Shown: positions 10,474-19,185 of the stretch, piece after piece
Layout of the letters: every line of letters starts with the position of its first letter
Position numbering within the stretch: the first letter of the stretch is position 1
DNA from: Gemmatimonadota bacterium
Lineage (GTDB): Bacteria > Gemmatimonadota > Gemmatimonadetes > Palauibacterales > Palauibacteraceae
Length of the DNA stretch: 64,000 nucleotides
Reading direction: 5' to 3'
Assembly: GCA_022820995.1 (NCBI GenBank)
Contig: JAJEEM010000044.1
Coordinates: 2,027-66,026 of the forward strand
The notes under the pieces: model-generated
What the model was told of the DNA's origin: nothing
Seen by the model: the letters and a program-made list of their open reading frames with translations, nothing else
Databases searched by the model: none
Position numbers and translations under genes: made by a program

Positions 10474-10806
10474 TCACGGGAAGACGAGGTCCAGCTTCCG
10501 CCAGTCCTTCTGCGCCGATGCGCACTGGGACGTCCAGTCCGGCGAGTGGTTGAGCTGGTCGGGCACGTGCGCCGGCCAGAAGCAGGCGAGGTGGCAGTCG
10601 AACAGGTCGCGCTCCACCGGCTGGCACAGGCCCGCGGTCCCGCCGCTCGAGTCGACCTCCCAGCCGGGCGCGAAGACGAGCGAGCACCCGAGCGGGATGT
10701 GGGGCCCCTCCGGCCGGCTCTCGAGCCCCACGACGTCCATCTCCTCGCGGGCCACCTGCGCCTCGATGCGGCCGGCCTTCTGGTTGATCGGTTTCAGCTG
10801 TTTCAC
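10474..10806 (-). CDS. qhpC: QHNDH gamma subunit precursor (Cys-rich peptide carrying CTQ and thioether cross-links)
   Basis: 110 aa, GTG start after the SD GAGGGGGAA. The Cys/Glu/Asp/Trp register is C41-E50, C61-D67, C71, C75-W77 and C75-D83. This matches the Paracoccus gamma subunit spacing (Cys7-Glu16, Cys27-Asp33, Cys37-Trp43 CTQ, Cys41-Asp49). It ends ...DWRKLDLVFP. Confidence 0.8.
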   Translation of the reverse strand: MKQLKPINQKAGRIEAQVAREEMDVVGLESRPEGPHIPLGCSLVFAPGWEVDSSGGTAGLCQPVERDLFDCHLACFWPAHVPDQLNHSPDWTSQCASAQKDWRKLDLVFP

Positions 10807-10854: not shown

Positions 10855-12294
10855 TCAATGGTCGAAGCGGGACAGGTACTCCGGGTTCCGCTCCGACAAC
10901 TCCCCGTAGATCTCCAGACACGTATGCGTCCACGTCCGCACCCAGGTGCAGAAGTGCAGGTTGGGCGCGGTCGTCTCGCCGTGTCGCGTGTGCGCTTCGT
11001 GATAGCAGCCGCCCGAGCAGATCGGGCGGGCCCAGCATGTATGGCAGTCCGTCTTGTTCTTGACGTGGTGGCTCTCGAGGAAATCCTTCTGCCGCTCCCG
11101 GTCGATGCCCTCCGCGACGCTGCCGAAGCTGTGGTCGTTCGAGTACGCGAAGCGGTGGCAGAGCGACACGTCGCCCCCCGTCGTCACACCCATCAGCCCG
11201 AGCCCGGCCCCGCACGGATAGGCCTTGCTCACGCCCTTGTGGATCTCCTCCAGCGTGTCCTTCACGTTCGAGAAGCCGTGGTGCCGGTTCTCGACCGCGT
11301 GATCCAGCCAGTCGCGCGCCAACTCCCCGAACTGGCGCAGCATGCGGTCGTACCCCTCGTCCTCGATCTCGTAGTCGCGCCCGGAGGAGGTCGTGACCGG
11401 GGCGAAGCCCACCTCCCAGAACCCCATCTCCTCCGTCAGGTGCTCGTAGATCCGGTGGATGTCGAGGTTTTCGCGGGTGAGCGTCACGCGCGCGCCGATC
11501 GGGCGGGACTTGTGACGCCTGAGAAGTTCCCTGATCCGCGGCTTGACGGTCTCGTAGGAGCCCTTGCCGCTGTGGAAGACCCGCATGCGGTCCTGCATCT
11601 CCTTCGGTCCGTCGATGGAGACGGTCACGCCGATCTCGTTGTCCGCCAGCCACTCGATGATGTCGGGGCGGAGGAGCGTCGCGTTCGTCGTGAGACTGAA
11701 CTCGATCCGCTTCCCCTCCTCCTCGGCGCGCTTGCGGGCGTAGGCCACCGTGTCCTGGAGGACGGGGAAGTTGAGCAGCGTCTCACCGCCGAAGAAGGTG
11801 AGGTGCGCGACCTCGAGGGGGCCCGACTCCTTCAGGAGGAACTCGACGCTCTCCCGGGCCGTCTCGTCCCCCATGAACTTCGGGTCGTCCGTGCATGTCG
11901 TGTCGACGATCTTGTCCTCGCCGTACTCGTAGCAGTACGTGCACGCGAGATTGCACTTGTTCGTGACGTTGAGGACCATCGTCGTGAGCGGGAAGCCGTC
12001 CGGCGGCAGATCGTTCACGACCTGTTCGGCGGGAGCCCCCGCCTCCCCGATGGCTCGGATCTGCTGGAGCTCCAGCAACCCGTCGTGGACGCGGTCGACG
12101 GGGTAGCGGTCGGAAAGAGAGTTCACGACCTCGCCCGGCGCGCGGGGACCGTAGCTCAGCAGATCGAGGATCGCCGACGACGCTGCATCGATGCGGAAGA
12201 TGCCGGCCGAGGGGACGAGGTAGAGGAACCGCTCGCCTGCCGCCTCGAATGCATGGAATTCACGCAGCGCCAGTTGGCCGACGGGCTTGATCAC
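10855..12294 (-). CDS. qhpD: Radical SAM / SPASM-domain maturase (QhpD-like thioether-forming enzyme)
   Basis: About 479 aa with CNLACTYC (CxxxCxxC) and a C-terminal Cys-rich SPASM region (CGAGLG...CHRF, CHTCWARPICSGGCYHEA). The GTG start overlaps the qhpA stop (GTGA). Confidence 0.85.
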   Translation of the reverse strand: MIKPVGQLALREFHAFEAAGERFLYLVPSAGIFRIDAASSAILDLLSYGPRAPGEVVNSLSDRYPVDRVHDGLLELQQIRAIGEAGAPAEQVVNDLPPDGFPLTTMVLNVTNKCNLACTYCYEYGEDKIVDTTCTDDPKFMGDETARESVEFLLKESGPLEVAHLTFFGGETLLNFPVLQDTVAYARKRAEEEGKRIEFSLTTNATLLRPDIIEWLADNEIGVTVSIDGPKEMQDRMRVFHSGKGSYETVKPRIRELLRRHKSRPIGARVTLTRENLDIHRIYEHLTEEMGFWEVGFAPVTTSSGRDYEIEDEGYDRMLRQFGELARDWLDHAVENRHHGFSNVKDTLEEIHKGVSKAYPCGAGLGLMGVTTGGDVSLCHRFAYSNDHSFGSVAEGIDRERQKDFLESHHVKNKTDCHTCWARPICSGGCYHEAHTRHGETTAPNLHFCTWVRTWTHTCLEIYGELSERNPEYLSRFDH

Positions 12295-14063
12295 GGAACC
12301 AGCCTCCCCGTGGGAACCCCCTGCCAGGGGTCGAACTTGAGGTAGAGCGGCACCGTCACGATGAGGTGCGCCCGCGCGCGGAGACTCCGGGAAGCACCCG
12401 CATCGGCGTCGGAGCCCGCATAGGTCGCGACGATCCACACGTCGCCGACGTTGTTCCGGCTGCCCGTGCGGTCGGTATTCGGGCCATCGATCGCGGGGGT
12501 GAAGACGCCGTCGGACCCGAGCGCCCCGACGTATTGGATGTCGTCGTCGTCGAAGGTCGCCGCGTACTCCTCCATGCTCCAGGTCACCGGCACGCGCCCG
12601 AGCCGGAGATCGTCCTCCGTGTTCGGTTCTCCGTCGGGGCCGTCGTCCCACCCGATCGCGTCGTAGGGCTGATATCCCTTGGGAAAGGCCCCGCCGCCGA
12701 TCCGGGCCATGCCCGCGCGCGGCGTCACCTCGAGGCGGTCCACGCCATCGTGCACCTGAATCGCGCCCCGAAGGCTCGCGCCGGCGAGGAAGAGGTCGCG
12801 CTCCCCGACCGGTGCGTCATCGTCGACGGAAAGGCGGATCGTAATCCGGTCCCCATCGCCGCCCGTGGCGGACTCGACGCGGACACCGCGACCGAAGTCG
12901 AAGTCCGCCGGGTCGGGGTTCGCCGGCAGGTTCGCGCCGTGGACCCGGAGTTCGGCGGACGACGCGACGCGGATCGCCCGCGGGTGGACGCCCGATACGA
13001 CGGGGCCGCCGCTCACGCGGGTCAGCTTCACGTCGGGGCCGAACTCGTCGTACGCGCCCCTGAACCAACGGCCGGTCATCTCCTGCCAGTCGCGGTCGAC
13101 GGTCATGACCTCGCGCAACTCGTCCTGACCGCCCGGATTCGAACGCCCGCGCCACTGGTAGCCGGTATAGACGATGGACTGCCCGCTCCGGCTCTCCTGC
13201 TCCCCCGACTCCGCGTATGCGTACGTGATCGCGGTCCGGAATTCATCCGGGGCGTCGCCGGCGGTGATCTCCACCGTTCCGAAGACCTGCCCCTTCCCGG
13301 GCTCGAACCCGGCCAGCGCCCATGTGCCGGCGAGACGCGGCGTCCGCATCGAGGCCGACCAGGCGGACCACTCCGGCGTCTCGAGCGGGAAGGCTTCGGA
13401 GAGGTGGTCGATCGCCTCGTCCACGGGCTGGGGACCATCGCCCCCGCCCTGGAAGGCCTGGAAGTCGACGAGCGGGTAGAGACCGCGGTGCGTCGCCATG
13501 AGGAGTTCCCACTCCTCGCGCGTGCGTCGCTGGGTGATGACGCGGCCCATGCTGTGGCACTGGATGCAGGTGTTCTCGACGTCGCGGTCCGCCTCGTAAA
13601 CGTGCTCGATGAGGCGTCGCTCGACCTCGAAGCGGCCGGGCTCGAGTTCCTCCGGAGCGAGCCCCTGCCGGTTGGAGAGATAGCGCACGACCTCGCGCGC
13701 CTCATCGGGACCGAGGGAGACGTCGTTGAGCGCGACCATCCGGCGGACCGACGTCTGCCACCCTTCCGGCGTCTTCCGCTCGTAGGAGATCCGCGTCATC
13801 CGCCCCTCGTCATCGCGCTCGTGACAGCGCTGACAGCGGACGATGATGACCTGGCTGTCGATCGGATAACCCTCGTCGTCGGCCTGCCCCGGGGCTCCCG
13901 CGGTGCCGGCGAACCGAGCCGAAGCGAGGTCGACGGCCGGAGTCGAGGGCATGTCCGGGACCGGAGGCAGAGCGCGCGCGCCGAGGAAAACCAGCGCGCC
14001 GACGGCCATTGCGGCCGCCGGCAGTCGGTCAAGTGCCCGTCGCGTAGTCGCTTTGCGTCTCAT
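12291..14063 (-). CDS. qhpA: Diheme cytochrome c, QHNDH alpha subunit-like
   Basis: About 590 aa. The ATG at 14063 follows a GGAGGA SD. It has a signal peptide and two CxxCH heme motifs (CQRCH, CIQCH) followed by a large beta-rich C-terminal region. Confidence 0.8.
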   Translation of the reverse strand: MRRKATTRRALDRLPAAAMAVGALVFLGARALPPVPDMPSTPAVDLASARFAGTAGAPGQADDEGYPIDSQVIIVRCQRCHERDDEGRMTRISYERKTPEGWQTSVRRMVALNDVSLGPDEAREVVRYLSNRQGLAPEELEPGRFEVERRLIEHVYEADRDVENTCIQCHSMGRVITQRRTREEWELLMATHRGLYPLVDFQAFQGGGDGPQPVDEAIDHLSEAFPLETPEWSAWSASMRTPRLAGTWALAGFEPGKGQVFGTVEITAGDAPDEFRTAITYAYAESGEQESRSGQSIVYTGYQWRGRSNPGGQDELREVMTVDRDWQEMTGRWFRGAYDEFGPDVKLTRVSGGPVVSGVHPRAIRVASSAELRVHGANLPANPDPADFDFGRGVRVESATGGDGDRITIRLSVDDDAPVGERDLFLAGASLRGAIQVHDGVDRLEVTPRAGMARIGGGAFPKGYQPYDAIGWDDGPDGEPNTEDDLRLGRVPVTWSMEEYAATFDDDDIQYVGALGSDGVFTPAIDGPNTDRTGSRNNVGDVWIVATYAGSDADAGASRSLRARAHLIVTVPLYLKFDPWQGVPTGRLVP

Positions 14064-14166
14064 CCATCCTCCGTTCCGAACCGGTGAATTGTGCGCGAAA
14101 CGGAGCGGATGCGCCACCCCGAACGGGGCCTTCTCCACGCCTCGCGCCCACGCGCCCGCCCATCCG

Positions 14167-15708
14167 TCACGGGTCGGTCAGCTCGAGGAAGCCCGCGCCC
14201 ACCGCGAACGAGAGGGCGGCCAGGAAGTCCGGGAGCGGCACCGCCGTCCCGCGCCGGTTGTACGCCTCGAACAGGTCGGGCACCTGATCGGAGTCCGGCG
14301 CGATCTCCGTGAGCCGGCGGAGGTCGACGTTGCGTACGTAGCGCGCGCCGTCCGGGAGTCGGTCGGAGATAAGGCGCGCCTCGAGGGCGATCCGGTCCTC
14401 GACGACGGCGGGCCGTCGCACGCTCGAGAGTCGCGCCGCCGGGCGCAGGTGCACGGCCGGCAGCGAACGGATCGTCTCCCACGCCGTCCGCACTTCCGGG
14501 CGCCCCAGGAAGGCGTCGACCCGGCGTTCCGCGAGCGGGCGGTCTCCGGGTTCCGACACCGCGGGCGCTCCGGGCGCGGAGGCGGGCCCCGGGAGGTCCG
14601 CGCCCGCTTCCCGCGCCGCAGCCAGGCGAACCTCCCAGAACGCGTGGTCGTTCGCGGCGGCGGCCTGCTCGAAAAAGGGGACGGAGAGCACCCGGTAGGT
14701 CCGGTACACATCGCGTTCCCGGTCGTCGTACAACTCGCAGGCCGGCCCGACCATCGTCTCATCGTCCAGCGCCGTGTGAGTGACGATCGCGGCGAGCCAG
14801 GCGGAGGCGAGCGCCTTCTTGACCCCGTACGAGGAGAGGGGGTCGATGAAGGAGCCGGCGTCGCCGACGAGGAGCAGGCCCGGCCGGCCGTGCGAGGCTG
14901 CGCCGTAGAGCGACGCGGGGCAGGCGCGCACCGGCCCGTCCAGCCGTCCGTCGGCGAGGCGCTCGGCGAGCCGCGCCGCCTTGGCGAGTTCGGCGCGCCA
15001 CATGCCGTCGAGGCCCTTCTCGCGCGCCAGGTGCGTGCGGCGCGGGTCGACCATCGCCGTAACGCAGCGGGTACGCGGCGATGTCGGCACCGACCAGGCC
15101 CACCCGTCCGCGTAGCTCTCGATGAGCGTACAGCCGGGGTCCGGCGGAGCGTGCCCGCGGCCCGCGGTCCAGCGGCCGACGAGCGCGAGCGTGGCGATCC
15201 CGCGTTCGCGCGCCCGCAGCCCGCGCCGGGCGAACACCCCGGCCCGCCCGGAGGCGTCGAGCACCCAGCGACCCCGGTAGCGCGCGGTCGAGGTGGCGAC
15301 GCGCCAGCCATCGGGCTCCTCGGCCGTCTCGATGACCGGTCCGTCCGTCACGAGGCGCACGCCCGCCTTGCGGGCCACTCCGTGGAAGACGGCTTCAAGC
15401 GCCGCCCGATCCGCATGGAAACCATGCTCGGGCGCCCCGAACCGTTCTTCACGGCGGGGCATCCCGGCCCACCAGACGGTGTTGCCCTCGTTCGGCACGA
15501 GGCCCGCCGCGTCCAGGGCTTCCAGCGCTCCCACGCGTTCGAGGAGCTTCCGCGCCGAGCCGGGGATCGACTCGGCGAGCCATTTCGCCGGCGGCGCCGG
15601 CCGCGTGATCAGCGCTACGTCATGCCCGCGCCGCGCCAGCGACGCGGCGGCGGCGCAGCCGGCCGGCCCCCCGCCGACAACAACGACGTCGTACGGCGTA
15701 CCTGTCAG
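14167..15708 (-). CDS. qhpG: FAD-dependent monooxygenase (QhpG-like, tryptophan-halogenase/hydroxylase fold)
   Basis: The GGGPAG dinucleotide-binding motif (YDVVVVGGGPAG) lies upstream of the first in-frame GTG (15534). There is no ATG/GTG/TTG between the upstream in-frame TAA (15715-15717) and that motif. A CTG at 15708 gives a canonical Rossmann N-terminus. Confidence 0.65.
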   Translation of the reverse strand: MTGTPYDVVVVGGGPAGCAAAASLARRGHDVALITRPAPPAKWLAESIPGSARKLLERVGALEALDAAGLVPNEGNTVWWAGMPRREERFGAPEHGFHADRAALEAVFHGVARKAGVRLVTDGPVIETAEEPDGWRVATSTARYRGRWVLDASGRAGVFARRGLRARERGIATLALVGRWTAGRGHAPPDPGCTLIESYADGWAWSVPTSPRTRCVTAMVDPRRTHLAREKGLDGMWRAELAKAARLAERLADGRLDGPVRACPASLYGAASHGRPGLLLVGDAGSFIDPLSSYGVKKALASAWLAAIVTHTALDDETMVGPACELYDDRERDVYRTYRVLSVPFFEQAAAANDHAFWEVRLAAAREAGADLPGPASAPGAPAVSEPGDRPLAERRVDAFLGRPEVRTAWETIRSLPAVHLRPAARLSSVRRPAVVEDRIALEARLISDRLPDGARYVRNVDLRRLTEIAPDSDQVPDLFEAYNRRGTAVPLPDFLAALSFAVGAGFLELTDP

Positions 15709-15714
15709 GTCGGC

Positions 15715-16398
15715 TTACCGCTCCCGCCGCGAGAACTGCAGCAGCAGGTCGCCGCCGCTCGGCCCATCCGTCGCGAAGCAGTAGAAGCGCCCGTCACCCC
15801 CCGTCCCGCGCAGATTCTCGAGGCTGCAGCCCCGCGACCCGTGGGCCTCGTTCCACGAGGTCGGGTTCTGTCCGCCACCCACGCGGTCGTGGTGCCCGAC
15901 GAGCGCGCTCCCCTCACCGCTCGACGTCCAGTTGCCGCACGTCGTGTCCCCGTCGGCGTCCGACGCCATGCCGTTCATCAGGGACCCGGTGAGGATGTCG
16001 TGCTGGTTCGGCTGGTCGCCCCGCCCGTTCACCTCGCTGCCGGTCTCCGTGAGGATCGTGGCCTTCGTGAGGTTCGGGCCGTTGCTGTGCAGGTGCTCGA
16101 CATCCCGGGCGATCATCGTGCCCGCGTGGTTGTACCACGGCCCGTCTCCGATGCGGTCGCGCGCGTTCACGCCGCCCGCGCCCGTCGTGCTCAGGTAGGC
16201 CCGCCACATGCGGTCGGGCAGCCCCGCCGCCTCGGCCAGCGCCTCGCAGTAGGCGTCCGCGCCCTCGAGACCGCCGAGATCCGCGCCGTCCCCCGGATTC
16301 GAACTGGTGATGAAGAAGCTGATGTTCTCGTCCTGCGCTGCCGCCCCGCCCGCGCCGAATGCGAACAGGATGGCCATGAAGCCAATCGTGCGTCTCAT
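15715..16398 (-). CDS. Secreted hypothetical protein with a Cys-containing lectin-like C-terminal region
   Basis: 227 aa with a signal peptide and the C-terminal stretch ...CGNWTSS...SWNEAHGSRGC...GRFYCFA. Its stop lies directly before qhpG and in the same frame. Confidence 0.45.
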   Translation of the reverse strand: MRRTIGFMAILFAFGAGGAAAQDENISFFITSSNPGDGADLGGLEGADAYCEALAEAAGLPDRMWRAYLSTTGAGGVNARDRIGDGPWYNHAGTMIARDVEHLHSNGPNLTKATILTETGSEVNGRGDQPNQHDILTGSLMNGMASDADGDTTCGNWTSSGEGSALVGHHDRVGGGQNPTSWNEAHGSRGCSLENLRGTGGDGRFYCFATDGPSGGDLLLQFSRRER

Positions 16399-16431
16399 CT
16401 CCGACTCCCGTGCTGGTTGTTGCGAAATCTG

Positions 16432-17457
16432 CTAACGCCGGATGTACTTTCTCATCTGACGGGGTCCGACCTCGGCCCCGTAGAGGTTGCCGTGCGCGTC
16501 GACGGCGATTCCCTCCGCGCCGCTCGTGCCGGAGGCGTCCTGATTGGGTTCCGGATCCGGGATGAAGGCCGTCACCCAGCCGGTCGCCGCGTCGCCGATG
16601 TAGATGCCGCGGAGCCACCCCTTGTTGCGGCGCGCGTTCGACTCCGAGTCCGTCGAGTAGAGGACATCGCCCTCGTCGATGAACAGTCCGCTCGGACGTC
16701 CGAACTGGTGCCAGGTTTCGAGGTGGTTCCCCTCCTGATCGAAGATCTGGACGCGGCTGTTCCCGCGATCGCCGACGAAGAGACGTCCCTGCGAGTCCAT
16801 CGCGAGCGCGTGCGGGTCGCGGAACTCGCCGTTCGCCGTGCCCATGCGTCCCCATTCCATGAGGAAGGAGCCATCGGGCGCGAACTTCACGATGCGGTTG
16901 TTGCCGCCCGCGTCGTGCCCGTCCGCCACGAAGATGCTGCCGTCGGGCGCGACGAGGATGTCCGACGGCTTGTTGAAGTGGTTCGGGCCGTCGCCGGCGA
17001 CGCCTTTCTCGCCCAGCGTCATCAGGACCTCACCCTCAGGGCTGAACTTGTAGACCACGTGTCCCCAGCCCTCCGGCACCGGCGCGTATCCCACGGCATC
17101 GGCCACCCATACGCTGCCGTCCTCCTCGACGAACATCCCGTGCGGCCACGCGATCAGTCCCGAACCGAAACTCCGCACGAGGTTCCCCTCGGTATCGAAG
17201 AGCAGGATCGGGTCGACGTCGCTCTCGACGCACAGGTTCGCGCCGCACCGCTCGCCCACCCAGATGTGTTCGCCGTCCGGGGCCGGGTAGACGGCGCTGG
17301 TCGCGCCCCACGCGCGTCCGTCGGGAAGCTGGCCCCAGCCGTCCATCGCCCTGTACGGGTTCGGCGCCGTCAACTGCGCCGCGAGCGCGCCGGCGCCCGA
17401 AATGGCCGCCGCAAGCGCGAGTGTCGCGATGAATCCGATTCGCCTTGTGCCTTGCAT
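16432..17457 (-). CDS. Secreted NHL-repeat beta-propeller protein (PAL-like)
   Basis: 341 aa with a signal peptide and repeated NHL-like blades (FVADGHDAGGNNRIVKF, FVGDRGNSRVQIFD). The real start is internal to a 685-aa ORF. Confidence 0.65.
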   Translation of the reverse strand: MQGTRRIGFIATLALAAAISGAGALAAQLTAPNPYRAMDGWGQLPDGRAWGATSAVYPAPDGEHIWVGERCGANLCVESDVDPILLFDTEGNLVRSFGSGLIAWPHGMFVEEDGSVWVADAVGYAPVPEGWGHVVYKFSPEGEVLMTLGEKGVAGDGPNHFNKPSDILVAPDGSIFVADGHDAGGNNRIVKFAPDGSFLMEWGRMGTANGEFRDPHALAMDSQGRLFVGDRGNSRVQIFDQEGNHLETWHQFGRPSGLFIDEGDVLYSTDSESNARRNKGWLRGIYIGDAATGWVTAFIPDPEPNQDASGTSGAEGIAVDAHGNLYGAEVGPRQMRKYIRR

Positions 17458-17561
17458 CCGTCCTCCTGTCCTTCCGATCCGCGCCATCCGTGTCGGGCCG
17501 AAGACGATGGGACGCCAACGGCAAAGCGGGCAAGCGGCGCAGCGGGGCGGGGTGCGGCGGA

Positions 17562-19004
17562 CTACTCCGCCAGGGCCGTCCGGCCGCCGCCCTTCGCCTT
17601 CGCAGCCAGCTTGCCGAAGGGTCCGCTGATCGCCCACGCCGCGCCCACGACGATGAGCGCGAGCGCGCCCCAGCGCATGAGGGCGGCGGCCAGCGCTCCG
17701 TCGAAGGCGGGCCACGCAAATCGGTAGGCCAGCAGGTCGGAGCCCCGGTCCGTCATCCAGTGCCAGCCCGTGTGCGCCAGCAGCGCCGACCCGATGATCG
17801 TCCCCATCCGCTCCGCCACGACCTTCCGGAACACCACCTCGACCACCGGAACGGCGACCGCGACCACGACGAGCTGTCCCAGTTCCACGCCGACGTTGAA
17901 CGCGAGCAGGGACGTGAGCAGATGCCCGCCCGCGAACTGCAGCGACTCGCTGAGCGCGAACGAAAAGCCGAACCCGTGCACGAGCCCGAATCCGAACGCG
18001 AGCAGCCAGCGTTTTCGAGGTTTCGCGCCGACGATGTTCTCGAGCGCCATGTAGACGATCGAGAGCGCGATGAGGGTTTCGATCAGCGGCGGGAACCAGA
18101 GGGCGCGCGGCGCGATGCCGAAGGCGGAGGCGATGAGCGTGATCGAGTGCGCGATCGTGAAGGAGGTGATGACGGGGATCAGACCCCACAGCGTCCGCAG
18201 CGGGATGACGAGACAGAGGAGGAAGAGGAGGTGGTCGATCCCGTCGAGGATGTGCGTGAAGCCGAGCGACACGAAGCGCAGCGCCGCCTGGTGCCAGCGG
18301 GGGTCGAGCCGCACGAGCCCCGGGTCGCCGACGTACTGGAAGACGCGCTCCGGCCGGTCCGGCGGCCGCAGGCGCAGCACCGTGACCGTGCGCAGGCCGA
18401 GGTGCGCGAAGCCCGGATCGATCGAGAAGCGGGACTCGTCCGACGCGATATCGTACTCCAGCAATACATCGAGCAGAGCCTGGCGCCACGGGAGCTGCAG
18501 CCCCGGGTCGAGCGGCGGGGCGTCGAAGTGCGCCAGCGCCGTCTCGTAGCTCGCGAAGGACCGGTCCGAGGGGAGCGAGACGCGGGTTGCGACGATGCGG
18601 GGCGCCTCCAGGCGCCGATCCTCCTCGTAGAACGTCACGTAGTCGGCGAGCCAGAGTTGCGCGGCGTCCCGGAGGAACGGGTCCGCCGCCTCCAGGTCCA
18701 GATACCCGAGTCCGTACCGGGGGAACTCGATGTCCCTCATCGCCTCGAGCGGCGCACGGACGAGGAAACGGAGACGGGATCCCTCCGGCGTGACGAAGGC
18801 CTGCACGGTGACGTCCGCCGGAATCTCGTGCGGCACGGCAGCGGTCGCCCCGGCCGCCCGATCCGACGCCGCCCGTTCAGGCACCTCCCGCTCGGGTGCC
18901 GCCCGTGCCGCGCCGGCCAGACTCGTCAGGCCGTAAAGCGCGAGAACGCACCCCATCAGGGGCGCCGTGCGCCGGGCGGGACGCCGTGTGTCACCTCGCT
19001 TCAT
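17562..19004 (-). CDS. Fusion of a novel periplasmic N-terminal domain with a HupE/UreJ-family membrane domain
   Basis: About 480 aa. The C-terminal roughly 230 aa has the HupE/UreJ-type motifs HILDGIDHLLF and FGFGLVHGFGF with multiple TM segments. The N-terminal roughly 250 aa has no recognisable family. Confidence 0.55.
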   Translation of the reverse strand: MKRGDTRRPARRTAPLMGCVLALYGLTSLAGAARAAPEREVPERAASDRAAGATAAVPHEIPADVTVQAFVTPEGSRLRFLVRAPLEAMRDIEFPRYGLGYLDLEAADPFLRDAAQLWLADYVTFYEEDRRLEAPRIVATRVSLPSDRSFASYETALAHFDAPPLDPGLQLPWRQALLDVLLEYDIASDESRFSIDPGFAHLGLRTVTVLRLRPPDRPERVFQYVGDPGLVRLDPRWHQAALRFVSLGFTHILDGIDHLLFLLCLVIPLRTLWGLIPVITSFTIAHSITLIASAFGIAPRALWFPPLIETLIALSIVYMALENIVGAKPRKRWLLAFGFGLVHGFGFSFALSESLQFAGGHLLTSLLAFNVGVELGQLVVVAVAVPVVEVVFRKVVAERMGTIIGSALLAHTGWHWMTDRGSDLLAYRFAWPAFDGALAAALMRWGALALIVVGAAWAISGPFGKLAAKAKGGGRTALAE

Positions 19005-19185
19005 CCGCGATTCCCGATGGGAAGAGCACTCCTGGTCCGCCCGCACGATGGCGCGGCCGGCCCGCGCCGTCGACCCCGGCCGGTCTCTGGACGAACGCGG
19101 ATGGCATCGGTAGCGTGAATCGATCCGGGACAAGCCGGGATCGGGCGAGTCGGCAGCGACTCAGGATCCGCAAGGAGAGACAGCC

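What the first reader, a model, noticed from the sequence alone, without database searches (positions are those of the whole stretch)
15700..15720. qhpG has no canonical start codon: in-frame TAA of the upstream gene, then CTG, then the Rossmann motif
The secreted-protein ORF (15715..16398) and qhpG are in the same reading frame, separated by a single TAA (15715-15717). Between that TAA and the GGGPAG FAD-binding motif there is no ATG, GTG or TTG. The first in-frame GTG (15534) lies about 55 codons inside the conserved fold. A CTG at 15708, 6 nt after the TAA, would give M-TGTPYDVVVVGGGPAG, a textbook N-terminus for a flavoprotein. The alternatives are CTG initiation by re-initiation coupling, a sequencing error (ATG to CTG, or a sense codon to TAA creating an artificial split), or programmed stop-codon readthrough producing a fusion.
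Basis: seen in the sequence. Interest (0 to 1): 0.55.

Follow-up and report, generated by a model that had tools for sequence, protein, structure and literature searches.

The report
Conserved CTG start codon of qhpG
In this sponge-associated bacterium and about 26 related genomes, the enzyme gene qhpG has no normal start codon and most likely begins at a rare CTG codon placed right after the stop of the gene in front. This is a real but already-annotated example of a known rarity, not a sequencing error.

Summary
On the minus strand a 227-aa secreted-protein gene ends with TAA (15717-15715). It is followed by GCC GAC, then CTG (15708-15706), then the FAD-binding motif. No ATG, GTG or TTG occurs before GTG 15534.

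Sequencing error is excluded. Two assemblies of the source agree at the junction, and 26 other Palauibacterales loci, several from complete chromosomes, also lack a canonical start.

The 52 codons upstream of the first GTG are under strong purifying selection (dN/dS 0.08). That GTG is not conserved: it is GTC or GTA in 10 of 21 orthologues.

A readthrough fusion is excluded. The two genes are out of frame in seven loci, the stop varies (TAA, TGA, TAG), and the upstream protein has a signal peptide.

An in-frame CTG lies 6-7 nt after the stop in 21 of 27 loci. It overlaps the stop (CTGA) in three, lies 18-19 nt downstream in two, and is absent in one. Outgroups have ATG or GTG and a longer spacer.

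Best reading: CUG initiation, probably by termination-reinitiation coupling. RefSeq already annotates this CTG as the start in at least six orthologues. It is a new member of a known kind, of modest interest.

The parts
15715..16398 (-). Upstream gene 'sec227': 227-aa secreted protein (N-terminus MRRTIGFMAILFAFGAGGAAAQ) with an endostatin-like fold. Its terminating ribosomes are proposed to feed qhpG.
   Evidence: ORF. No Pfam or NCBIfam hit. Conserved directly upstream of qhpG in all Palauibacter loci. AlphaFold model and fold search hit only endostatins.
15721..15725 (-). Weak Shine-Dalgarno-like GGGAG inside the 3' end of sec227, 11-12 nt before the CTG.
   Evidence: Duplex energy about -6.6 kcal/mol with CACCUCCUU. 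Present in roughly 60% of orthologous loci and absent (-3 kcal/mol) in the TGA-type loci.
15715..15717 (-). TAA stop codon of sec227, in frame with qhpG in this genome.
   Evidence: It is TAA, TGA or TAG, in frame 0, +1 or +2 relative to qhpG, in the orthologues.
15709..15714 (-). 6-nt untranslated spacer GCCGAC. The GCC is nearly invariant; the second triplet varies.
   Evidence: A +1 insertion is tolerated here in L004/L041.
15706..15708 (-). Proposed CUG initiation codon of qhpG.
   Evidence: It is the only table-11 start codon between the stop and the Rossmann motif. It is invariant in 21 loci while 18 of the 21 flanking sites vary. RefSeq annotates it as the start in at least six orthologues.
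14167..15708 (-). qhpG-like FAD-dependent monooxygenase CDS, 513 aa if started at the CTG.
   Evidence: NF049967 QhpG, E = 4e-67, 226.9 bits against a cut-off of 240. Trp_halogenase and FAD Pfam domains. Matches PDB 7ctq and halogenases.
15658..15675 (-). GGC GGG GGG CCG GCC GGC, encoding GGGPAG, the dinucleotide-binding GxGxxG motif.
15532..15534 (-). First canonical in-frame start (GTG). It is used by Prodigal-type callers to give a 455-aa product and is not the real start.
   Evidence: It is GTG in only 11 of 21 orthologues. The 52 codons upstream have dN/dS 0.08.
12291..14063 (-). qhpA, quinohemoprotein amine dehydrogenase alpha subunit, 103 nt downstream of the qhpG stop.
   Evidence: TIGR03908, E = 9e-141. 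Gene call in L001.
10855..12294 (-). qhpD radical-SAM maturase, overlapping the qhpA stop by 4 nt.
   Evidence: TIGR03906, E = 2e-169. Gene call in L001.
10477..10806 (-). qhpC gamma subunit, the substrate of QhpG. It has a canonical GTG start.
   Evidence: NF037958, E = 2e-37. ORF.
16432..17457 (-). NHL-repeat protein gene, 33 nt upstream of sec227. In outgroups it is the direct upstream neighbour of qhpG.

Best explanation
qhpG of this Candidatus Palauibacter genome is a functional gene whose translation starts at the CUG codon at 15708-15706, giving (f)Met-TGTPYDVVVVGGGPAG... Because the CUG lies 6 nt after the sec227 stop codon, the start is most likely served by ribosomes that have just terminated on sec227 (termination-reinitiation coupling). 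Independent recruitment through a strong Shine-Dalgarno site is less likely. The arrangement arose when sec227 came to lie directly in front of qhpG in the Palauibacterales ancestor, replacing the ATG and 38-106-nt leader seen in outgroups. A weak start would give low QhpG output relative to the structural genes that follow. Shown here: no canonical start exists; the N-terminal region is translated; the CTG and its closeness to the stop are conserved. Inferred: CUG is the codon actually used, reinitiation is the route, and low expression is the purpose.
For: 1. No ATG/GTG/TTG lies between the stop and the GxGxxG motif in the window or in 22 of the 26 related loci. The exceptions are L004/L041, with a GTG further upstream inside sec227, L011, with a GTG even further upstream (165 nt before the motif), and L054, with TTG and GTG downstream of the CTG.
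2. The 52 codons before the first canonical GTG have dN/dS 0.08, against 0.19 for the next 100 codons. That GTG is GTC or GTA in 10 of 21 orthologues.
3. An in-frame CTG lies 6-7 nt after the stop in 21 of 27 loci. All three of its bases are invariant, whereas 18 of the 21 neighbouring tail sites vary.
4. Where that CTG is lost, another in-frame CTG takes its place. In L011/L014/L029 a 1-nt deletion brings the CTG of aaCTGAgc into frame, giving a 4-nt overlap like the classic ATGA. L052/L053 have a CTG at -21.
5. Indels that are not multiples of three occur only between the stop and the CTG (L004/L041; L052 versus L053). The one indel after the CTG is a 12-nt in-frame duplication in L017.
6. 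A Leu codon 8 codons downstream (-9) shows ordinary synonymous drift (CTG/CTC/CTT/CTA/GTT), so CTG fixation is not a general feature of these genomes.
7. The Shine-Dalgarno-like motif is weak, 11-12 nt away, and missing in about 40% of loci. There is no conserved RNA structure.
8. Stop-to-start distances of -8, -4, +6 and +7 nt fall in the -8 to +10 nt range where termination-reinitiation is efficient (PMC10666635, PMC6728339).
9. Outgroups have ATG or GTG 1-2 codons before the Asp of beta-1, with 38-106-nt spacers or a TGATG overlap.
10. The resulting N-terminus (6 residues before beta-1) matches solved homologues.
11. NCBI's pipeline independently chose this CTG: the exact CTG-started sequences exist as WP_428278627.1, WP_420617533.1, WP_419163751.1, WP_420637389.1, WP_420464350.1 and WP_423930746.1.
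Against: There is no direct evidence of initiation: no proteomics, Ribo-seq or reporter data. CUG gives only about 1-2% of AUG activity in E. coli (bioRxiv 10.1101/063800). The invariance statistic is partly circular, because the 20 sequences were chosen for having the CTG. Six of 27 loci lack it at that position. L052/L053 place their CTG 18-19 nt after the stop, where coupling should be weak. L051 has no CTG at all, only an ATC overlapping the stop. Sixteen of 42 ordinary degenerate codons are also invariant in this set, so codon invariance alone is weak. In most orthologues, though not in this window, a second in-frame CTG at -9 could also serve, and RefSeq chose it once (P0126).
Confidence: 0.62

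Rival explanations
1. The same CUG is the start, but it is used by free 30S subunits recruited through the weak GGGAG motif, without dependence on sec227 translation.
For: GGGAG lies 11-12 nt upstream in the window and in about 60% of loci. E. coli hda and yfjD use CTG starts without known coupling (PMC3531124). In L052/L053 the CTG is 18-19 nt from the stop.
Against: The motif is weak (-6.6 kcal/mol), at the far edge of usable spacing, and absent in the TGA-type loci (-3 kcal/mol). What is conserved is closeness to the stop codon, including a CTGA overlap.
Confidence: 0.2
2. Initiation occurs at another near-cognate codon or at several. In this window that would be ACG 15699-15697; in orthologues, the CTG at -9 inside strand beta-1.
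For: ACG is present at -24 in 12 of 20 loci. CTG at -9 is present in 19 of 26 loci, and RefSeq chose it for one genome (P0126). An outgroup protein starts MVVVGGG, so very short N-termini are tolerated.
Against: The -24 codon is also AGG, GGG, GCG, ACC, AAG or GAG. The -9 codon is GTT here and CTC, CTT or CTA in seven other loci. Neither is available across the clade, and the window has no -9 candidate.
Confidence: 0.08
3. Programmed readthrough or frameshifting makes a sec227-QhpG fusion protein.
For: The two ORFs are in frame and separated by a single stop in this window and in most loci.
Against: The frame offset is +1 or +2 in L004, L041, L011, L014, L029, L051 and L052. The stop is TAA, TGA or TAG. 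sec227 has a secretion signal, while QhpG acts on QhpC in a ternary complex with the radical-SAM enzyme QhpD before QhpC is exported to the periplasm (PMC7876137). No conserved RNA structure was found. The genes are separate and not adjacent in outgroups.
Confidence: 0.02
4. The true start is the downstream GTG (15534), giving a 455-aa protein without the Rossmann motif, or the gene is decaying.
For: Prodigal-type pipelines call exactly this product in many assemblies.
Against: dN/dS is 0.08 upstream of that GTG. The GTG is not conserved. The FAD-binding motif would be lost.
Confidence: 0.02
5. Sequencing or assembly error (ATG read as CTG, or a sense codon read as TAA).
For: The source is a metagenome assembly.
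Against: The junction is identical in two assemblies of the source. The same CTG and stop are found in 20 further genomes, including complete chromosomes such as NZ_OZ253465.1 and NZ_OZ244907.1.
Confidence: 0.01

Closest known systems
CTG-initiated genes of Escherichia coli K-12 (hda, yfjD)
   Same: A functional chromosomal gene with CTG as its only usable start, recognised through N-terminal sequence conservation (EcoGene 3.0, PMC3531124).
   Different: Those starts were verified by mutagenesis, and coupling to an upstream stop is not described for them. Here the evidence is only comparative, the CTG sits 6 nt after a stop, and it is kept across a whole genus with turnover of the site.
AUU-initiated infC and pcnB of E. 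coli
   Same: A weak non-canonical start conserved on purpose to keep or regulate low expression (cited in bioRxiv 10.1101/063800).
   Different: The codon differs (AUU, not CUG). infC is autoregulated through IF3 discrimination (my own knowledge). No regulatory logic is shown for qhpG.
Translational coupling by termination-reinitiation at overlapping or closely spaced gene pairs (ATGA, TGATG)
   Same: Co-directional genes with stop-to-start distances of -8 to +10 nt. Three Palauibacter species even have the CTGA equivalent of ATGA (PMC6728339, PMC10666635).
   Different: The described pairs restart at canonical start codons and are enriched for subunits of one complex. Here the restart codon is CUG and the partners (a secreted endostatin-like protein and a cytoplasmic maturase) have no known functional link.
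QhpG of Paracoccus denitrificans (PDB 7CTQ), in the qhpADCBEFGR operon
   Same: An FAD monooxygenase encoded in a qhp cluster with qhpA, D, C and B.
   Different: The gene order is qhpG first. There is a C-terminal extension of about 90 residues. The NCBIfam score is just under the cut-off, and sequence similarity to halogenases is higher.

Membership tests
QhpG (peptidyl-tryptophan dihydroxylase, NCBIfam NF049967) | Score at or above the curated equivalog cut-off (240 bits) | tested here: not met
   226.9 bits, E = 4.2e-67. QhpG is the best-scoring family, with profile positions 1-409 of 423 covered. This is a narrow miss.
QhpG (peptidyl-tryptophan dihydroxylase, NCBIfam NF049967) | Encoded in a qhp cluster with qhpA, qhpD, qhpC and qhpB | tested here: met
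   qhpA TIGR03908 (E = 9e-141), qhpD TIGR03906 (E = 2e-169) and qhpB TIGR03907 (weak, below its cut-off); qhpC NF037958. All lie immediately downstream on the same strand.
QhpG (peptidyl-tryptophan dihydroxylase, NCBIfam NF049967) | N-terminal glutathione-reductase-type Rossmann FAD site (GxGxxG) | tested here: met
   VVVVGGGPAG at residues 8-17. It is present only if translation starts upstream of GTG 15534.
QhpG (peptidyl-tryptophan dihydroxylase, NCBIfam NF049967) | Dihydroxylation of the QhpC tryptophan | not testable with these tools
   This is a biochemical property (PMC7876137).
Bacterial gene with a non-canonical (CUG) initiation codon | No in-frame ATG/GTG/TTG between the upstream stop and the conserved N-terminal domain | tested here: met
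   for the window, and 22 of 26 related loci.
Bacterial gene with a non-canonical (CUG) initiation codon | The region upstream of the first canonical start is translated (purifying selection, in-frame indels only) | tested here: met
   dN/dS 0.08. There is a 12-nt in-frame duplication in L017, and non-3n indels occur only upstream of the CTG.
Bacterial gene with a non-canonical (CUG) initiation codon | The near-cognate codon is conserved among orthologues beyond its coding value | tested here: met
   CTG is kept in 21 of 27 loci and replaced by another in-frame CTG in 5. Caveat: the statistic is partly circular.
Bacterial gene with a non-canonical (CUG) initiation codon | Direct evidence of initiation (N-terminal peptide, Ribo-seq, mutagenesis) | not testable with these tools
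   The organism is uncultured and no such data are held here.
Termination-reinitiation coupled gene pair | Co-directional genes with a stop-to-start distance of about -8 to +10 nt | tested here: met
   +6 nt here. Across loci: +6 or +7 in 21, -4 in 3, -8 (with ATC) in 1, and +18/19 in 2.
Termination-reinitiation coupled gene pair | Downstream translation depends on upstream translation | not testable with these tools
   This needs reporter constructs with premature stops.
Termination-reinitiation coupled gene pair | Shine-Dalgarno motif in the 3' end of the upstream gene (frequent but not obligatory) | tested here: inconclusive
   Weak GGGAG at 11-12 nt in about 60% of loci, none in the rest.
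Programmed stop-codon readthrough or frameshift fusion | The frame relation and recoding signal are conserved among orthologues | tested here: not met
   Frame offsets of 0, 1 and 2, and stops TAA, TGA and TAG. No conserved structure.

The most novel reading that the evidence does not exclude
Since sec227 was placed in front of qhpG, the whole Palauibacterales clade (down to 64% protein identity) may have expressed qhpG only through ribosomes terminating on sec227. In that case the restart would need no cognate start codon. CUG would be preferred but movable (positions -33, -42, -21) and even dispensable (L051 has none, only an ATC overlapping the stop). This would be a natural, evolutionarily stable case of obligatory reinitiation at near-cognate codons in bacteria, possibly with selection keeping the start weak.
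Probability: 0.25. Interest if true: 0.6.

Novelty: new member of a known kind. Interest (0 to 1): 0.38.

Why it matters
Practical value: gene callers limited to ATG/GTG/TTG truncate this enzyme by 58 residues and remove its FAD-binding site. The public protein collections hold dozens of such 455-462-aa fragments, plus other arbitrary starts, for this one gene. Any functional or structural inference from those entries is wrong.

Biological value: few bacterial CUG starts are known; in E. coli K-12 only two have been confirmed, hda and yfjD. This one comes with an unusually rich comparative record: 27 lineages, site turnover, and outgroups with canonical starts. It is therefore a good natural test case for whether post-termination ribosomes can restart at near-cognate codons, and for how expression of a maturation enzyme is set below that of the structural genes in one operon.

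Tried and rejected
1. RNA structure at the junction. The RNAalifold consensus of 19 junctions has a covariation term of only -0.53 kcal/mol and one compensatory pair. The single-sequence fold has z = -0.08 against shuffles. No element was found.
2. Promoter and terminator scan of 13900-17700. There were no promoter-like sites, and terminator-like sites were at chance level. This is uninformative.
3. A genome-wide habit of CTG starts. A GC-by-codon-position screen of all long ORFs in the window found no other coding-like extension upstream of the first canonical start. The two weak candidates were checked and dismissed, or found uninformative.
4. Metagenome scan. It added only two Palauibacter loci, L040 and L041.
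5. Literature. [quoted passage not shown] The Caulobacter dnaA CUG (PMC8443254) was shown not to be used in vivo. No paper on Palauibacter or QhpG mentions the start codon.
6. Selection against canonical starts. Too few substitutions are expected at one site to test this, so no claim is made.
Full report
**What is in the sequence**

On the minus strand a 227-codon ORF (ATG 16398) ends with TAA at 15717-15715. The next codons, in the same frame, are GCC GAC CTG(15708-15706) ACA GGT ACG CCG TAC GAC GTC GTT GTT GTC GGC GGG GGG CCG GCC GGC. The first ATG, GTG or TTG in that frame is GTG 15534. Every coordinate in the finding is correct.

The downstream ORF is the best match to NCBIfam QhpG (226.9 bits, E = 4e-67). 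It falls just under the 240-bit cut-off, and the profile starts at residue 8 counted from the CTG. It is followed on the same strand by:
- qhpA (TIGR03908);
- qhpD (TIGR03906), which overlaps the qhpA stop by 4 nt;
- qhpC (NF037958);
- qhpB (a weak TIGR03907 match, 55.6 bits, below its 223-bit cut-off);
- an ABC exporter.

Solved homologues align from their residues 8-25 to residue 6-8 of the CTG-started protein. These include P. denitrificans QhpG (7ctq) and the halogenases 3e1t and 3i3l. A start at GTG 15534 would delete the FAD-binding beta-alpha-beta unit.

**Source and read-level question**

The 455-aa product called from GTG 15534 is on record in two assemblies: an ENA metagenome scaffold (KELL22-1, SAMN22237343) and a Logan assembly of run SRR16351690. 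The junction is base-for-base identical in both. The organism belongs to Candidatus Palauibacter (Gemmatimonadota), a group found largely in sponges and marine samples.

**Comparative evidence**

I collected 26 further loci from the clade that has the same gene order. They came from a scan of one genome per species, a metagenome scan and look-ups of individual homologues. Several are complete chromosomes.

In 22 of the 26 there is no ATG, GTG or TTG between the sec227 stop and the GxGxxG motif, nor in any upstream part of the qhpG frame left open. The exceptions are:
- L004 and L041, where the qhpG frame stays open into sec227 and a GTG lies 13 codons upstream of the CTG;
- L011, where the frame is also open and the nearest in-frame GTG lies 165 nt upstream of the motif;
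- L054, which has TTG and GTG a few codons after the CTG.

This rules out a sequencing error.

**The N-terminal region is translated**

- Across 19 species the 52 codons from the Asp of strand beta-1 to the codon before the first GTG have dN/dS 0.08. The next 100 codons have 0.19.
- The codon equivalent to GTG 15534 is GTG in 11 orthologues, GTC in 9 and GTA in 1. It is an ordinary valine codon, not a conserved start.
- Within the window this 60-codon upstream extension is the only one with coding-type base composition (GC by codon position 0.78/0.63/0.87).

**Which codon starts the protein**

Positions are counted from the first Gly codon of GGGPAG.

| Candidate | Position | Distance from sec227 stop | Loci |
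|---|---|---|---|
| CTG | -33 (-45 in L017, which has a 12-nt in-frame duplication downstream) | 6-7 nt after | 21 of 27, including the window |
| CTG within aaCTGAgc | -42 | 4-nt overlap, like ATGA | L011, L014, L029 |
| CTG (the -33 codon is CGG) | -21 | 18-19 nt after TAG | L052, L053 |
| No CTG; only an ATC (ATCGCTGA) | -39 | 8-nt overlap | L051, the most basal member |

- In the 20 loci of the first class without the L017 insertion, all three bases of the CTG are invariant, while 18 of the other 21 sites of the tail vary. This statistic is partly circular, because the class is defined by the CTG.
- In L011, L014 and L029 a 1-nt deletion just downstream removed the -33 CTG and brought the CTGA codon into frame.
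- Indels that are not multiples of three occur only between the stop and the candidate CTG (L004/L041; L052 versus L053). This places the 5' limit of translation there.
- The conserved Leu codon at -9 drifts among CTG, CTC, CTT, CTA and GTT. In the window it is GTT, so it cannot be the start here.
- ACG at 15699 is not conserved.
- The codon after the CTG always has C at its second position, giving Thr, Ala or Ser. Such small residues would allow removal of the initiator Met. This is an inference.

**How the arrangement arose**

In outgroups with 60-62% QhpG identity, qhpG has an ATG or GTG one or two codons before the Asp (M-H/R-D-V-x-V-I-G-G-G). It follows the NHL-repeat gene after 38-106 nt, or it overlaps a small ORF as TGATG. 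sec227, when present, lies on the other side of the NHL gene.

In the Palauibacter clade the order is HupE/UreJ-like, NHL, sec227, qhpG, qhpA. A rearrangement therefore put sec227 directly in front of qhpG and removed the old initiation region.

**Mechanism**

CUG is a table-11 start codon. It supports about 1-2% of AUG activity in E. coli (bioRxiv 10.1101/063800) and is the verified start of E. coli hda and yfjD (PMC3531124).

What is conserved here is nearness to the upstream stop (-8, -4, +6, +7 nt in 25 of 27 loci). That is the range in which termination-reinitiation works; coupling falls steeply beyond 10-20 nt (PMC10666635, PMC6728339).

The Shine-Dalgarno-like GGGAG is weak, lies 11-12 nt away, and is absent in about 40% of the loci. 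No conserved RNA structure exists.

My estimates:
- about 0.8 that the CUG at 15708 is the start;
- about 0.75 that, given this, it is served mainly by reinitiation;
- about 0.6 for both together.

A physiological reason, low output of a maturation enzyme placed ahead of highly expressed structural genes, is plausible but untested.

**Rejected readings**

A readthrough or frameshift fusion is contradicted on several counts:
- The two genes are out of frame in seven loci.
- Three different stop codons are used.
- sec227 has a signal peptide.
- The genes are separate in outgroups.

Sequencing error and a start at the downstream GTG are contradicted as described above.

**What is already known**

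The exact CTG-started proteins of six orthologues exist as RefSeq entries (WP_428278627.1, WP_420617533.1, WP_419163751.1, WP_420637389.1, WP_420464350.1, WP_423930746.1). NCBI's pipeline has therefore already made this call.

Other public entries for the same gene start at the -9 CTG, at GTG or ATG codons deep in the fold, or far upstream inside sec227. I found no publication on it.

**Verdict**

It is a new, well-documented member of a known rare class: a bacterial CUG start, probably coupled to the upstream gene. Interest is modest. It rises if the start-site turnover and the CTG-less L051 mean that reinitiation here does not need a defined start codon.

Noticed in passing
window 15715-16398 (minus strand): The upstream secreted protein has no Pfam or NCBIfam match. 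It belongs to a very large family: about 8000 candidates scored, nearly all significant, and every named one is called 'hypothetical'. Its AlphaFold model (pLDDT 72.8, pTM 0.74) matches only mammalian endostatin domains of collagen XVIII/XV in the PDB (E = 2.5e-6, TM 0.64). It is a bacterial endostatin-like, C-type-lectin-like fold of unknown function.
   Followed up: partly
window 14167-15708 (minus strand): The QhpG-like protein scores just under the NCBIfam QhpG cut-off (226.9 against 240 bits). By sequence it is closer to the flavin-dependent halogenases 3e1t and 3i3l (E = 1e-27) than to the solved QhpG 7ctq (E = 4e-13). It carries GWAWSVP, which resembles the halogenase WxWxIP motif, and a C-terminal extension of about 90 residues.
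   Followed up: partly
L051:1330-1460 (ENA ERZ19489113, 3.05-Mb contig): The most basal genome with sec227 next to qhpG has no ATG, GTG, TTG or CTG before the Rossmann motif. Its only table-11 start is an ATC that overlaps the sec227 TGA by 8 nt (ATCGCTGA).
   Followed up: partly
L039, L034, L036 compared with window 15700-19133: The gene order differs between clades. Outgroups have HupE/UreJ-like, sec227, NHL, qhpG (or NHL, qhpG). Palauibacter has HupE/UreJ-like, NHL, sec227, qhpG. The HupE/NHL/sec227 module stays next to the qhp genes in several Gemmatimonadota lineages.
   Followed up: partly
public protein entries P0001-P0027 and P0121-P0154: One orthologous gene carries at least six kinds of annotated start: CTG -33, CTG -9, GTG/ATG/TTG codons 20-100 residues inside the fold, and long extensions that read the sec227 DNA in another frame (for example 552- and 561-aa products).
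   Followed up: yes
window 15712-15714 and orthologous positions: The GCC triplet directly after the sec227 stop codon is nearly invariant (G 20/20, C 20/20, C 19/20) although it is outside both coding regions. The reason is unknown; it may be termination or restart context.
   Followed up: no
L014:4540-5350 and L051:3012-3771: About 700 extra bases lie between qhpG and qhpA in these two genomes, against about 100 nt elsewhere. The content was not examined.
   Followed up: no
window 12291-12294: qhpA and qhpD overlap by 4 nt, the classic coupling overlap with a canonical start. The same operon therefore also uses standard stop-start overlap coupling.
   Followed up: no
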